Below are positions 35,818 to 41,009 of a stretch of 64,000 bases of DNA, piece by piece (the stretch's first letter is position 1; every line of letters starts with the position of its first letter). The notes beneath the pieces are model-generated. The model did no database searches. It was given only the letters and a program-made list of their open reading frames with translations, and was not told where the DNA came from. Location of the stretch: the NCBI RefSeq assembly GCF_055900595.2, contig NZ_CM148325.1; one strand, given 5' to 3'. A program made the position numbers and the translations under genes.

Positions 35818-35920
35818 TTCCCCTTAATCCAGCAAACATAAAAGCCAACCTTAAGAACTTAAGGTTGGCTTAATTTTGCTTTGCGAGCATATGCGCACTT
35901 TGTTCGATGGAAACACCGTG

Positions 35921-38229: not shown

Positions 38230-38238
38230 TTGAATCTG

Positions 38239-39330
38239 ATGCGTTTTCTGCGCCGACCAATATCGCTGCGCCAACGGCTGATATTGACCATCGGGGCCAT
38301 TTTGTTGGTGTTTGAGCTGATCAGCGTCTTCTGGCTATGGCATGAAAGTACCGAGCAGATTCAGCTGTTTGAGCAGGCGCTACGCGACAATCGTAACAAC
38401 GATCGCCACATCATGCGTGAGATCCGCGAGGCGGTCGCCAGCCTGATTGTCCCTGGCGTCTTTATGGTCAGCCTGACGCTATTTATCTGCTATCAGGCGG
38501 TACGCCGCATCACCCGCCCGCTGGCGGAGCTGCAAAAAGAGCTGGAAGCGCGCACCGCCGACAACTTAACGCCCATTGCCATTCACAGCGCCACCCTCGA
38601 AATCGAAGCGGTGGTTTCAGCGTTAAACGATCTGGTCAGTCGCCTGACCAACACGCTGGATAACGAAAGGTTGTTTACCGCTGACGTCGCGCACGAACTG
38701 CGAACGCCACTGGCGGGGGTGCGTTTGCATCTGGAACTGCTGGCGAAAACGCATCACATTGATGTAGCACCGTTAGTGGCACGACTTGATCAGATGATGG
38801 AGAGTGTCTCCCAGCTACTGCAACTGGCGCGTGCCGGACAGTCATTTTCTTCCGGTAATTATCAACATGTAAAACTGCTGGAAGATGTCATTCTCCCCTC
38901 GTATGACGAACTCAGTACCATGCTCGACCAGCGCCAGCAAACCCTGCTATTGCCAGAGAGCGCCGCCGACATCATCGTTCAGGGTGATGCAACCCTGCTG
39001 CGGATGTTATTGCGAAACCTGGTAGAAAATGCCCATCGTTACAGCCCGCAAGGCAGCAACATTATGATTAAGCTGCAAGAAGATGGCGGAGCGGTCATGG
39101 CCGTTGAAGATGAAGGACCGGGTATTGATGAGAGTAAATGCGGGGAGTTGAGTAAAGCGTTTGTACGTATGGACAGCCGTTATGGCGGGATTGGTCTGGG
39201 GTTAAGTATTGTCAGCCGCATTACACAGTTGCATCACGGGCAGTTTTTCCTGCAAAACCGGCAAGAGACTTCTGGCACACGGGCCTGGATACGGCTGAAA
39301 AAAGATCAGTACGTGGCAAACCAGATATAA
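38239..39330 (+). CDS. basS: Sensor histidine kinase BasS (PmrB)
   Basis: 363-aa frame from ATG 38239 (MRFLRRPISLRQRLILTIGAILLVFELISVFWLWHESTEQ...); ORF track extends to an upstream TTG at 38230. Confidence 0.85.
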   Translation: MRFLRRPISLRQRLILTIGAILLVFELISVFWLWHESTEQIQLFEQALRDNRNNDRHIMREIREAVASLIVPGVFMVSLTLFICYQAVRRITRPLAELQKELEARTADNLTPIAIHSATLEIEAVVSALNDLVSRLTNTLDNERLFTADVAHELRTPLAGVRLHLELLAKTHHIDVAPLVARLDQMMESVSQLLQLARAGQSFSSGNYQHVKLLEDVILPSYDELSTMLDQRQQTLLLPESAADIIVQGDATLLRMLLRNLVENAHRYSPQGSNIMIKLQEDGGAVMAVEDEGPGIDESKCGELSKAFVRMDSRYGGIGLGLSIVSRITQLHHGQFFLQNRQETSGTRAWIRLKKDQYVANQI

Positions 39331-39395
39331 AGAAAGCTGCTGACCACCAGCACGCTGAACACGGTAGTTAAACTTTCATAAACACGGTTTTTCAT
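39306..39395 (-). CDS. pmrR: Small membrane peptide PmrR (29 aa)
   Basis: Hand-translated minus-strand ORF MKNRVYESLTTVFSVLVVSSFLYIWFATY; overlaps the 3' end of basS on the opposite strand. Confidence 0.6.
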   Translation of the reverse strand: MKNRVYESLTTVFSVLVVSSFLYIWFATY

Positions 39396-39506
39396 TGCAC
39401 TCTCCTCCGTTAACCTGGAGGAGAGTATGCGCGTCAGAGATTAAGTGAACCTTAAGAGTTCAATTGGCCTGATAAGACAGCATCACATCAGGCCATCCGT
39501 TTCAGC

Positions 39507-41009
39507 TTATTCATCAATTCGCGGATGCTGCTGCACCAGGCGGGTACGTTTCGCCTGCAAATCGGCAATCTCGTGGTCAATATCATCGATTTTCTGCTCG
39601 ATATTATCGTAATGCTCGACGAGAATTTCCTTCGCTTCCTGTATATCTGACGCCGCCGGTGTCGCACCTTTCAACGGACGATTCGCCGTCTCTTTCATGG
39701 TTACGCCGGTGATTAAACCAACCACCGCCACTACCATCAGGTAATAGGCAGGCATCATCAGATTCTGCGAGCTTTCGACCAGCCAGGCCGCCAACGTTGG
39801 CGTCAGACCGGCAACCAGCACCGAAATATTAAATGCCGCCGCCAGCGCGCTGTAACGGATATGCGTCGGGAACATCGCTGGCAAGGTAGAAGCCATAACG
39901 CCCGTAAAGCAGTTAAGGATCACCGCCAGCATCAGTAACCCGGCAAAAATCAGGCCGATGACGTTACTGTTAATCAGAATAAACGCCGGGATCGCCAACA
40001 CAAACAGTGCAACACTACCAAGTAGCACAAACGGACGACGGCCAAAACGGTCACTCAGCAAGCCCATCACCGGCTGGACAAACAGCATACCGATCATAAT
40101 GGCGATAATAATTAGCACCCCGTGGTCTTCGGAGTAATGCAGGTTATGCGACAAATAACTCGGCATATAGGTCAGCAACATGTAGTAAGTCACGTTGGTG
40201 GCAATTACCAGACCAATACATGTCAACAGGCTGCGCCAGTATTTAGTGGCAATCTCTTTAAACGAGACTTTCGGGCCATCCTGCAAACCTTCGCGGTCGC
40301 CCTGTTCCAGTTTATCAACATGCTGCTGGAACGCCGGAGTTTCTTCCAGCGCATGGCGCAGGTAAAGCCCGATAATCCCTAACGGCAGAGCAATAAAGAA
40401 CGGAATACGCCAGCCCCAGTCGAGGAAGTTCGCTTCGCCGACAATGGTCGAAATTAACACCACCACGCCCGCACCCAGCACAAACCCGGCAATAGAACCG
40501 AAGTCCAGCCAGCTGCCCATAAAGCCACGTTTACGGTCAGGGGAGTATTCCGCAACAAATATCGACGCCCCGGTATATTCACCGCCGACCGAGAAACCTT
40601 GTGCCATCTTACAGATCAACAGCAGAATCGGTGCCCAAATACCAATCGTGTCGTAGGACGGTATTAAGCCAATACAGAACGTACTGATCGACATAATCAC
40701 AATAGTGATAGCGAGGATCTTCTGGCGACCATATTTATCGCCCAACATACCAAAGAAGAGTCCGCCAAGCGGTCGAATCAGAAAGGGAACGGAGAAAGTG
40801 GCAAGTGCAGCAACCATCTGCACGCTGGGGTCAGCCCCCGGGAAAAAAACTTTACCTAATGCGTAAGCAACAAAACCATAAACACCAAAATCGAACCATT
40901 CCATTGCATTACCCAGTGATGCTGCGGTAATGGCTTTACGCAGTTTACCGTCATCAATAATAGTGACATCACGAAGGGTAATCGGTTTTACTTTTTTCCT
41001 TTTCAGCAT
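39507..41009 (-). CDS. proP: Proline/glycine betaine:H+ symporter (osmosensor)
   Basis: 500-aa MFS frame from the MLKRKKVKPITLRDVTIIDDGKLRKAIT start; C-terminal coiled-coil tail. Confidence 0.9.
   Translation of the reverse strand: MLKRKKVKPITLRDVTIIDDGKLRKAITAASLGNAMEWFDFGVYGFVAYALGKVFFPGADPSVQMVAALATFSVPFLIRPLGGLFFGMLGDKYGRQKILAITIVIMSISTFCIGLIPSYDTIGIWAPILLLICKMAQGFSVGGEYTGASIFVAEYSPDRKRGFMGSWLDFGSIAGFVLGAGVVVLISTIVGEANFLDWGWRIPFFIALPLGIIGLYLRHALEETPAFQQHVDKLEQGDREGLQDGPKVSFKEIATKYWRSLLTCIGLVIATNVTYYMLLTYMPSYLSHNLHYSEDHGVLIIIAIMIGMLFVQPVMGLLSDRFGRRPFVLLGSVALFVLAIPAFILINSNVIGLIFAGLLMLAVILNCFTGVMASTLPAMFPTHIRYSALAAAFNISVLVAGLTPTLAAWLVESSQNLMMPAYYLMVVAVVGLITGVTMKETANRPLKGATPAASDIQEAKEILVEHYDNIEQKIDDIDHEIADLQAKRTRLVQQHPRIDE

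What the first reader, a model, noticed from the sequence alone, without database searches (positions are those of the whole stretch)
39306..39395. pmrR small ORF overlapping the basS 3' end on the opposite strand
A 29-aa membrane peptide ORF matching PmrR lies antisense to the last codons of basS. It is too short for the ORF track and is easily missed.
Basis: partly seen in the sequence, partly recalled or inferred. Interest (0 to 1): 0.2.

Follow-up and report, generated by a model that had tools for sequence, protein, structure and literature searches.

The report
Known small membrane-protein gene pmrR
The 29-codon reading frame is the already known E. coli gene pmrR, whose tiny membrane peptide switches off the lipid A kinase LpxT when the BasS/BasR (PmrB/PmrA) system is on. 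It is an ordinary, correctly identified feature, with one possibly undescribed detail in its control region.

Summary
Confirmed, and already known. Window 39306..39395 (minus strand) is an ATG-started 29-aa ORF, MKNRVYESLTTVFSVLVVSSFLYIWFATY. It is identical in protein (29/29) and DNA (90/90) to E. coli K-12 pmrR (b4703). It scores 74.2 bits against NCBIfam NF033224 "LpxT activity modulator PmrR" (cutoff 30) and is annotated as pmrR in RefSeq. It converges on basS/pmrB (38230..39330, +) and overlaps its last 25 nt.

Its promoter carries a perfect PmrA/BasR box (39440..39456), one of only two in the 64 kb; the other precedes eptA. Published work on the identical K-12 sequence shows translation, membrane association and PmrA-dependent genetic inhibition of LpxT.

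Using PmrB as an anchor in 80 enterobacterial genomes, at least 54 carry a PmrR-like ORF in the same position. The overlap with pmrB varies from 0 to 57 nt.

One extra point: a covarying hairpin pairs the pmrR Shine-Dalgarno sequence with the -10/discriminator of its own promoter. The predicted start site lies after the 5' arm, so only read-through RNA from the upstream gene would have a masked ribosome site. This is inferred, not shown. Rfam "sRNA" STnc630 is this same intergenic region.

The parts
39306..39395 (-). pmrR coding sequence (29 codons plus TGA), a small single-pass membrane peptide
   Evidence: ORF list. Identical to K-12 b4703. NCBIfam NF033224 at 74.2 bits against cutoff 30. 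RefSeq annotation. pN/pS is 0.20 within Escherichia, and the third codon position is the most variable across genera.
38230..39330 (+). basS/pmrB sensor kinase gene; its last 25 nt (39306..39330) overlap pmrR on the opposite strand
   Evidence: ORF list. RefSeq pmrB is 1101 nt in the identical locus L001. Overlap computed.
39404..39408 (-). Shine-Dalgarno GGAGG, 8 nt before the pmrR ATG
   Evidence: Read from the sequence. The AGG core columns are invariant or nearly so in 52 orthologous upstream regions.
39399..39426 (-). Inverted repeat ACTCTCCTCC (39426..39417), loop AGGTTAAC (39416..39409), GGAGGAGAGT (39408..39399). The 3' arm contains the SD; the 5' arm overlaps the -10 hexamer and discriminator.
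   Evidence: Folds at -19.4 kcal/mol, z -5.7, whereas the 24-nt leader without the 5' arm has 0 kcal/mol. The helix is kept with compensatory changes in 50 distinct sequences: 82% of cells paired against 35-50% in slid controls. RNAalifold finds the same core.
39424..39429 (-). Predicted -10 hexamer CATACT, 10 nt downstream of the PmrA box. The predicted transcription start is C39417/A39416 (inferred).
   Evidence: Columns nAnACT are invariant or nearly so, and the 10-nt spacing from the box is kept across genera. The geometry is that of OmpR/PhoB-type activators whose box replaces the -35 (my own knowledge). The start site itself was not verified here.
39440..39456 (-). PmrA/BasR box CTTAAGgttcaCTTAAT of the pmrR promoter
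   Evidence: Exact match to YTTAAK-N5-YTTAAK. There are only 2 matches in 64 kb against 0.09 expected. A box with 0-1 mismatch lies at -58..-63 from the ATG in all 53 orthologous loci analysed. Deleting this box in K-12 abolishes PmrR function (PMC8129183).
39338..39352 (-). Terminator-like hairpin TGCTGG-TGG-TCAGCA followed by GCTTTCTTTA, inside the pmrR CDS
   Evidence: Consensus scan. A published remark says SEnd-seq shows upstream-gene transcription terminating inside the pmrR CDS (PMC10687069). The fold is not better than shuffles, so the assignment is weak.
39466..39494 (-). REP-like hairpin between the proP stop (39507..39509) and the PmrA box
   Evidence: Folds at -17.9 kcal/mol, z -3.7. 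Sequence read.
39299..39464 (-). Full-length match to Rfam RF02052 'STnc630 sRNA', which is the whole proP-basS intergenic region including pmrR
   Evidence: 182 bits against a gathering score of 55, model positions 1-166/166. The source table gives STnc630 as the whole proP/basS intergenic region of Salmonella LT2, with no Northern signal (PMC2515195 Table S3).
35858..35874 (+). The only other PmrA box in the window, upstream of eptA-basR-basS (context: same regulon, converging operon)

Best explanation
This is pmrR (b4703). When BasS/PmrB senses Fe3+ or mild acid (or is activated through PhoPQ-PmrD), phosphorylated BasR/PmrA binds the box at 39440..39456 and activates a promoter that has no -35 element. 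The short mRNA is translated into a 29-aa inner-membrane peptide that inhibits LpxT. LpxT is the enzyme that adds a second phosphate to position 1 of lipid A. With LpxT blocked, EptA, encoded by the converging eptA-basRS operon, can add phosphoethanolamine at that position. This lowers surface negative charge, raises polymyxin resistance, lowers deoxycholate resistance and, in Salmonella, feeds back on PmrB by reducing Fe3+ binding. Shown here: the identity of the ORF, family membership, the PmrA box, synteny, and coding-type conservation. Taken from the literature on the identical K-12 sequence: translation, membrane location, PmrA-box dependence and genetic dependence on lpxT. Inferred: the exact -10 and start site, and direct peptide-LpxT contact in E. 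coli.
For: 29/29 aa and 90/90 nt identity to K-12 pmrR. NCBIfam PmrR equivalog at 74.2 bits against a cutoff of 30. RefSeq annotation in identical genomes, and presence in 5408/5426 E. coli genomes. The exact sequence is PMRR_ECOLI. A perfect PmrA box, 2 in the window against 0.09 expected. A positionally conserved ORF with a PmrA box in at least 54 of 80 PmrB-anchored loci from many genera. pN/pS is 0.20 within Escherichia and the third codon position is the most variable. Literature: deleting the PmrA box of pmrR in a PmrA-constitutive K-12 strain causes polymyxin sensitivity, which lpxT deletion reverses, and restores deoxycholate resistance (PMC8129183). Start-site ribosome profiling (Ribo-RET) listed PmrR among the small proteins induced under low Mg2+; PmrR-6xHis is in the membrane fraction, and a start-codon mutant fails to complement (PMC11429745). 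The published pmrR qPCR primers match this ORF's ends exactly (PMC7559476).
Against: No experiment was run on this strain. The biochemical PmrR-LpxT interaction was shown in Salmonella (Kato et al. 2012, not readable here), not in E. coli. In E. coli the low-Mg2+ growth defect of a pmrR deletion is independent of lpxT (PMC11429745), so LpxT may not be the only target. A transcriptional reporter of the region upstream of pmrR did not respond to low Mg2+. The consensus sigma-70 scan finds no promoter, as expected for an activator-dependent promoter without a -35.
Confidence: 0.96

Rival explanations
1. The locus is a non-coding small RNA (Rfam STnc630) or just the proP 3' UTR, and the 29-codon frame is not a functional gene.
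For: Full-length Rfam RF02052 hit at 182 bits. In Salmonella, 27 Hfq-coIP reads against 1 control read in this orientation (PMC2515195 Table S3). proP transcription is reported to end inside the pmrR CDS (PMC10687069).
Against: STnc630 was defined as the whole intergenic region and gave no Northern signal. It predates the discovery of pmrR. The frame shows a coding pattern of substitution. It has a strong SD at the right spacing and a curated protein model hit. Published work shows initiation-site profiling, a tagged product, and loss of complementation when the start codon is mutated.
Confidence: 0.02
2. It is a chance ORF on the antisense strand of the basS 3' end.
For: 400 ATG ORFs of at least 29 aa occur in the window. 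Only 25 nt actually overlap basS.
Against: Exact identity to a curated, experimentally studied gene. The ORF is conserved across genera even where there is no overlap with pmrB at all.
Confidence: 0.01
3. For the conserved hairpin only: it acts in the basS-sense RNA, as a 3'-end stabiliser or processing element of the eptA-basRS mRNA, and not on pmrR translation.
For: The inverted repeat folds equally well on the + strand (-18.9 kcal/mol). Mean energies across species are similar, -15.6 in the pmrR sense against -14.2 in the basS sense. In BL21 subclones, pmrB with 86 nt of downstream sequence (ending in the loop at 39416) gave about 315-fold less pmrB mRNA than with 126 nt (PMC8004244). pmrR-basS is listed as a convergent transcriptional overlap (PMC12288877).
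Against: In the 8 core pairs, 34 cells are G-U only in the pmrR sense and 8 only in the basS sense. There is no U-run after the hairpin on the + strand. pmrB mRNA half-life did not differ between the +86 and +126 constructs. The +103 and +126 breakpoints also coincide with the pmrR -10 and the outer edge of the PmrA box.
Confidence: 0.2
4. In E. coli the main role of PmrR is not LpxT inhibition; it acts on another membrane partner.
For: The growth defects from pmrR deletion and overexpression under low Mg2+ are independent of lpxT (PMC11429745). An LpxT/PmrR complex has been suggested to influence EptA or ArnT (PMC8129183).
Against: The polymyxin and deoxycholate phenotypes of the pmrR promoter mutant are reversed by lpxT deletion or mimicked by lpxT expression. 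This is a direct genetic link.
Confidence: 0.1

Closest known systems
PmrR of Salmonella enterica and E. coli K-12 (b4703; NCBIfam NF033224)
   Same: Identical sequence to K-12. Same length, same position converging on pmrB downstream of proP, and the same PmrA-box promoter.
   Different: Nothing differs from K-12 within the gene. In the 241-nt comparison there are 3 differences, all outside the ORF: one in the REP-like hairpin and two inside basS.
MgrB and MgtS, small membrane proteins induced by PhoPQ that modulate membrane proteins (PhoQ; MgtA/PitA)
   Same: A peptide under 50 aa with a single hydrophobic helix. It is made on command of a two-component system and acts on an inner-membrane protein, closing a feedback loop (literature summarised in PMC11429745).
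   Different: No sequence relationship. PmrR's target is an enzyme (LpxT), not the sensor kinase itself, and its feedback on PmrB is indirect, through the surface charge of lipid A.
Rfam RF02052 STnc630 'enterobacterial sRNA'
   Same: The same DNA: the model covers window 39299..39464 end to end and includes the hairpin in its consensus structure.
   Different: The family was seeded from the coordinates of a whole intergenic region, with no mapped ends and no Northern signal. It contains a promoter and a protein-coding gene, so the label 'sRNA' is misleading.
Protection of IS10/IS50 transposase genes from outside read-through transcripts by ribosome-site sequestration (from my own knowledge: Davis, Simons and Kleckner 1985; Schulz and Reznikoff 1991). 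IS200 has a related start-codon hairpin (mentioned in PMC2515195).
   Same: The proposed logic is the same. An inverted repeat whose 5' arm lies upstream of the gene's own start site pairs with the ribosome binding site. RNA entering from outside is therefore not translated, while the gene's own transcript is.
   Different: Here it would be a chromosomal regulatory peptide gene, not a mobile element. The 5' arm is built into the -10/discriminator of an activator-dependent promoter. The start site and the effect on translation are untested.

Membership tests
PmrR (NCBIfam NF033224, LpxT activity modulator) | Sequence scores above the curated cutoff over the full model | tested here: met
   74.2 bits against a cutoff of 30, positions 1-29/29, E 5e-21. 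Identical to K-12 b4703.
PmrR (NCBIfam NF033224, LpxT activity modulator) | A peptide of about 29-30 aa with one hydrophobic membrane segment | tested here: met
   29 aa. Residues 9-26, LTTVFSVLVVSSFLYIWF, have mean hydropathy 1.95. Membrane fractionation of the identical peptide is published.
PmrR (NCBIfam NF033224, LpxT activity modulator) | Located converging on the 3' end of pmrB/basS | tested here: met
   25-nt convergent overlap. The same arrangement is found in K-12 and in at least 54 of 80 PmrB-anchored loci.
PmrR (NCBIfam NF033224, LpxT activity modulator) | PmrA/BasR-dependent promoter (PmrA box) | tested here: met
   A perfect box at 39440..39456, 2 in the window against 0.09 expected. 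The box is conserved at -58..-63 in all orthologous loci. Actual PmrA dependence comes from the literature.
PmrR (NCBIfam NF033224, LpxT activity modulator) | Binds and inhibits LpxT | not testable with these tools
   There is genetic evidence for the identical K-12 gene (PMC8129183). The biochemical evidence is from Salmonella (Kato 2012, not readable here).
Rfam RF02052 STnc630 sRNA | Covariance-model score above the gathering threshold | tested here: met
   182 bits against 55, full length.
Rfam RF02052 STnc630 sRNA | A discrete non-coding RNA with defined ends | tested here: not met
   The source table gives whole-intergenic-region coordinates and a Northern result of 'nd'. The region contains a translated ORF and its promoter.
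Read-through-protected ribosome site (IS10/IS50-type) | An inverted repeat that pairs with the Shine-Dalgarno sequence, kept by compensatory change | tested here: met
   -19.4 kcal/mol, z -5.7. 82% of cells are paired against 35-50% in slid controls, and five pairs show double changes. One pair occurs as AU, CG, GC and GU.
Read-through-protected ribosome site (IS10/IS50-type) | The gene's own transcription start lies inside or after the 5' arm | not testable with these tools
   Predicted only, from a conserved PmrA box, a 10-nt spacer, nAnACT, 6 nt and then A. No start-site data were found.
Read-through-protected ribosome site (IS10/IS50-type) | Transcripts from an upstream co-directional gene run across the site | tested here: inconclusive
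   52 of 53 loci have a co-directional upstream gene, with gaps as small as 54 nt. A published remark says upstream-gene transcription ends inside the pmrR CDS. No read-level data were examined here.

The most novel reading that the evidence does not exclude
The pmrR ribosome binding site is masked by a hairpin whose other arm is the -10/discriminator of pmrR's own PmrA-dependent promoter. RNA that starts at that promoter, predicted near 39416/39417, lacks the masking arm and is translated. RNA reading in from the upstream gene (proP in Escherichia, uvrB in most other genera) carries both arms and is not translated. Production of the peptide would therefore be licensed by promoter choice, as in IS10/IS50 protection against outside transcription. 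The arrangement is conserved with compensatory changes across Enterobacteriaceae.
Probability: 0.4. Interest if true: 0.45.

Novelty: already known. Interest (0 to 1): 0.15.

Why it matters
The finding as stated adds nothing new. pmrR is annotated in K-12 and RefSeq, and its role in tuning lipid A charge is published, with effects on polymyxin resistance, bile-salt sensitivity and feedback on PmrAB. It matters practically only as a reminder that annotation pipelines with length cutoffs miss it.

Three by-products may be useful. First, many Klebsiella, Raoultella, Kluyvera and Kosakonia genomes carry a positional PmrR counterpart that the curated model does not reach. Second, the Rfam 'sRNA' STnc630 is really this gene and its promoter. 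Third, the conserved anti-Shine-Dalgarno hairpin built into the promoter would, if real, explain how a tiny gene tucked behind a highly expressed neighbour stays silent until PmrA fires. It also offers a simple re-reading of the reported '3'-downstream region of pmrB' requirement for colistin resistance in BL21.

Tried and rejected
I did not attempt search of protein representatives or the look-up of encoding contigs, whose stated minimum is 30 aa. I anchored on PmrB instead.
- Pfam has no family for the peptide; the best hit was E 0.26, which is noise.
- The consensus sigma-70 scan found no promoter in 39200..39600. I did not take this as evidence against a promoter, because PmrA-type promoters lack a -35.
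- Kato et al. 2012, the original pmrR paper, is not held. I therefore could not take the mapped Salmonella start site from it.
- Literature searches for a pmrR start site and for STnc630 in main texts gave nothing usable.
- I first read the Rfam STnc630 5' boundary (39464, upstream of the PmrA box) as evidence for an RNA that starts upstream of the hairpin. I rejected this once the source table showed the coordinates are simply those of the whole intergenic region.
- I considered the hairpin as an intrinsic terminator for proP/uvrB or for basS and rejected it, because there is no U-run after it on either strand.
- I considered a protein-binding palindrome and rejected it, because the arms change sequence between genera while keeping complementarity.
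- Salmonella was not among the 80 loci returned, so no direct Salmonella comparison was made.

Full report
**1. Observation**

Window 39306..39395 on the minus strand is an ATG-started ORF of 29 codons ending in TGA. It encodes MKNRVYESLTTVFSVLVVSSFLYIWFATY. The + strand ORF 38230..39330 is basS/pmrB and ends ...DQYVANQI*. The two genes converge and share 25 nt, 39306..39330.

A 29-codon ORF means nothing by itself. The window has 400 ATG ORFs of at least that length. The significance comes entirely from what it matches.

**2. Identity**

- The peptide hits NCBIfam NF033224 "LpxT activity modulator PmrR" (equivalog) at 74.2 bits against a curated cutoff of 30, over all 29 model positions. Pfam has nothing.
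- A 321-nt query around the ORF is found in 5408 of 5426 complete E. coli genomes, and the top hits are annotated pmrB | pmrR | proP.
- In K-12 MG1655 the gene is b4703, "small regulatory membrane protein PmrR", at 4332116..4332205, overlapping basS. Its translation is identical.
- The 241-nt alignment shows the ORF, its leader and its promoter to be base-for-base identical. The only 3 differences lie in the REP-like hairpin and inside basS.
- The exact sequence is UniProt PMRR_ECOLI.
- The gene order rdcB-proP-pmrR><basS-basR-eptA is that of K-12, read in the opposite orientation in the window.

**3. Anatomy of the locus, read 5' to 3' on the minus strand**

- proP stop codon at 39509..39507.
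- A REP-like hairpin at 39494..39466, folding at -17.9 kcal/mol with z -3.7.
- A perfect PmrA/BasR box, CTTAAGgttcaCTTAAT, at 39456..39440.
- A 10-nt spacer.
- CATACT at 39429..39424.
- An inverted repeat: ACTCTCCTCC (39426..39417), loop AGGTTAAC, GGAGGAGAGT (39408..39399). The 3' arm contains the Shine-Dalgarno GGAGG, 8 nt before the ATG at 39395.

The pattern YTTAAK-N5-YTTAAK occurs only twice in 64 kb, against 0.09 expected. One copy is here and the other, at 35858..35874, precedes eptA. Both converging transcription units therefore carry the same activator site.

Inside the pmrR CDS there is a weak terminator-like hairpin at 39352..39338 followed by GCTTTCTTTA.

**4. What the literature says about this exact gene**

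- In K-12, deleting only the PmrA box of the pmrR promoter in a PmrA-constitutive strain makes cells polymyxin-sensitive and deoxycholate-resistant. Deleting lpxT restores polymyxin resistance, and ectopic pmrR complements (PMC8129183).
- Start-site ribosome profiling (Ribo-RET) identified the small proteins induced by low Mg2+, and PmrR is among those analysed. PmrR-6xHis fractionates with membranes. A deletion has a growth defect that wild-type pmrR complements but an ATG-to-TAA version does not. That growth phenotype is independent of lpxT, so further partners are possible (PMC11429745).
- The original Salmonella work (Kato et al. 2012) is cited by all of these but could not be read here.
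- pmrR-basS is listed among convergent transcriptional overlaps (PMC12288877).

**5. Related loci**

The peptide is too short for the protein search tools. I therefore used PmrB as an anchor in one genome per species and examined what lies at its 3' end.

- At least 54 of the 80 loci carry a 28-33-aa ORF converging on pmrB. These include Escherichia, Citrobacter, Klebsiella, Raoultella, Kluyvera, Kosakonia, Phytobacter, Pseudocitrobacter, Trabulsiella, Yokenella and others.
- These ORFs share a polar N-terminus, a hydrophobic core and a C-terminal F...W..(T/S)(Y/F). F21 and W25 are invariant.
- The more distant genera in the set, such as Pectobacterium and Rahnella, show none.
- The overlap with pmrB is 25 nt in Escherichia, 4 in Raoultella, 22 in Klebsiella and 57 in Pseudocitrobacter. 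It is zero in many others.
- Substitutions follow a coding pattern. Mean pairwise difference per site at codon positions 1, 2 and 3 is 0.40, 0.27 and 0.55 in the 30-aa group. pN/pS is 0.20 within Escherichia.
- Only 15 of 33 distinct peptides reach E <= 0.01 against the NCBIfam model. The Klebsiella-type counterparts are probably under-annotated.

**6. The conserved control region (beyond the finding)**

All 53 analysed loci, and the window itself, have a PmrA box with 0-1 mismatch starting 58-63 nt before the ATG.

In the alignment of 52 upstream regions, the box is followed by a 10-nt spacer and then nAnACT. The A at position 2 is nearly invariant and the T at position 6 is invariant. Then come 6 nt and usually an A. 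This is the geometry expected for an OmpR/PhoB-type activator whose box replaces the -35 (my own knowledge). It predicts a start at C39417/A39416, at the end of the 5' arm of the hairpin.

The hairpin itself is kept by compensatory change.
- 82% of cells are paired, against 35-50% when the partner is slid by 1 to 3 columns.
- The covariation score is 0.275, against at most 0.131 in the slid controls, and 0 of 500 shuffles reach it.
- One pair (columns 42-63) occurs as AU (17), CG (14), GC (6) and GU (6).
- RNAalifold recovers the same core.

In E. coli the RNA with both arms folds at -19.4 kcal/mol (z -5.7). The predicted 24-nt leader alone is unstructured at 0 kcal/mol.

In the eight core pairs, 34 cells are G-U only in the pmrR sense and 8 only in the basS sense. 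This modestly favours an RNA in the pmrR orientation. The fixed purines of the SD bias this count.

In 52 of 53 loci the gene upstream of pmrR is co-directional: proP in Escherichia and C. amalonaticus, uvrB in most others. The gap is sometimes only 54 nt, so the PmrA box abuts the upstream stop codon and no terminator can intervene. The single locus with a divergent neighbour (L060, Pantoea sp. A4) is also the one without a hairpin, at -5.1 kcal/mol. That is one case and not a statistic.

A published remark states that SEnd-seq shows upstream-gene transcription terminating inside the pmrR CDS (PMC10687069).

Taken together, the most economical reading has two parts. Read-through RNA carries a masked ribosome site, whereas RNA started at the PmrA-dependent promoter lacks the masking arm. 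This is the logic known from IS10/IS50 protection against outside transcription (my own knowledge). It remains an inference, because the start site and the translational effect were not measured. The main rival is a role in the basS-sense 3' UTR.

**7. Two side clarifications**

Rfam RF02052 "STnc630 sRNA" matches 39299..39464 end to end at 182 bits, and its consensus structure includes the hairpin. The source table lists STnc630 as the entire proP/basS intergenic region of Salmonella LT2 (4532473..4532638, 166 nt). It records 27 Hfq-coIP reads against 1 control read and no Northern signal (PMC2515195). The family is therefore this gene plus its promoter, and its boundaries say nothing about RNA ends.

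A BL21 study found that pmrB needs at least 103 nt, and for the full effect 126 nt, of downstream sequence to confer colistin resistance, while 86 nt fail (PMC8004244). Counting from the basS stop at 39330:
- +86 is 39416, the loop; no promoter is present.
- +103 is 39433, just past the -10.
- +126 is 39456, exactly the outer edge of the PmrA box.

The requirement thus coincides with a complete pmrR promoter. This fits the later demonstration that the pmrR PmrA box is needed for polymyxin resistance. The reading is mine. The authors mention pmrR only as a possibility, and the reported effects on pmrB mRNA level remain unexplained by it.

**8. Verdict**

The feature is an already known, annotated gene, so interest is low. 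The conserved anti-Shine-Dalgarno hairpin embedded in the promoter is the only element that might be new. I give it a probability of about 0.4 of working as proposed.

Noticed in passing
window 39399..39429 (-); loci L003-L063, the 40 nt before each pmrR-like ATG: A hairpin pairing the pmrR Shine-Dalgarno sequence with the -10/discriminator of its own PmrA-dependent promoter is kept by compensatory changes in 50 distinct enterobacterial sequences. The predicted start site lies after the 5' arm, so only read-through RNA would be masked.
   Followed up: partly
window 39299..39464 (-): Rfam RF02052 'STnc630 sRNA' matches full length. Its source coordinates are simply the whole proP/basS intergenic region of Salmonella LT2, so the 'sRNA' family is the pmrR gene plus its promoter.
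   Followed up: yes
window 39416, 39433 and 39456 (= +86, +103 and +126 after the basS stop): [quoted passage not shown] The requirement may simply be an intact pmrR promoter.
   Followed up: partly
L009-L063 (Klebsiella, Raoultella, Kluyvera, Kosakonia, Phytobacter, Pseudocitrobacter and others), just past the pmrB stop, minus strand: Thirty-aa PmrR-like ORFs such as MQKINFREYLAVATALVIIVAFFHQWVLTF, each with a PmrA box. 18 of 33 distinct peptides do not reach E <= 0.01 against the NCBIfam PmrR model, so they are likely to go unannotated.
   Followed up: partly
loci L003-L063, relative to the pmrB stop: The overlap between pmrR and pmrB varies from 0 to 57 nt between genera (25 in Escherichia, 22 in Klebsiella, 4 in Raoultella, none in Kluyvera and Phytobacter). 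The overlap itself is not conserved.
   Followed up: yes
window 39338..39352 (-), tail to about 39328: A terminator-like hairpin with a T-rich tail lies inside the pmrR coding sequence. This fits a published remark that proP transcription ends inside pmrR. pmrR's own mRNA would have to read through it.
   Followed up: partly
window 35858..35874 (+): The only other PmrA box in the 64 kb, CTTAAGgttggCTTAAT, lies upstream of eptA. It is preceded by a further CTTAAG half-site at 35850..35855.
   Followed up: partly
window 39466..39494 (-): A REP-like hairpin, GGCCTGATG...TTATCAGGCC, between the proP stop and the PmrA box. It carries the only difference from K-12 in the intergenic region (T against C at 39477).
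   Followed up: no
window 38230 (+): The basS/pmrB frame opens with TTG directly after the basR stop, giving 366 aa, as RefSeq annotates the identical strain (1101 nt). K-12 basS is annotated 9 nt shorter (1092 nt, 363 aa).
   Followed up: no
L050 (CACSKA010000002.1) against L042 (CACSJR010000007.1): A contig titled 'Chryseobacterium sp. 18061' carries an enterobacterial pmrB-pmrR-uvrB locus almost identical to that of 'Citrobacter sp. 18056'. This is probably a mislabelled or contaminated assembly.
   Followed up: no
L060 (Pantoea sp. A4): This is the only pmrR-like locus whose upstream neighbour is divergent rather than co-directional. It is also the only one without the anti-SD hairpin (-5.1 kcal/mol), although it keeps a perfect PmrA box.
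   Followed up: partly
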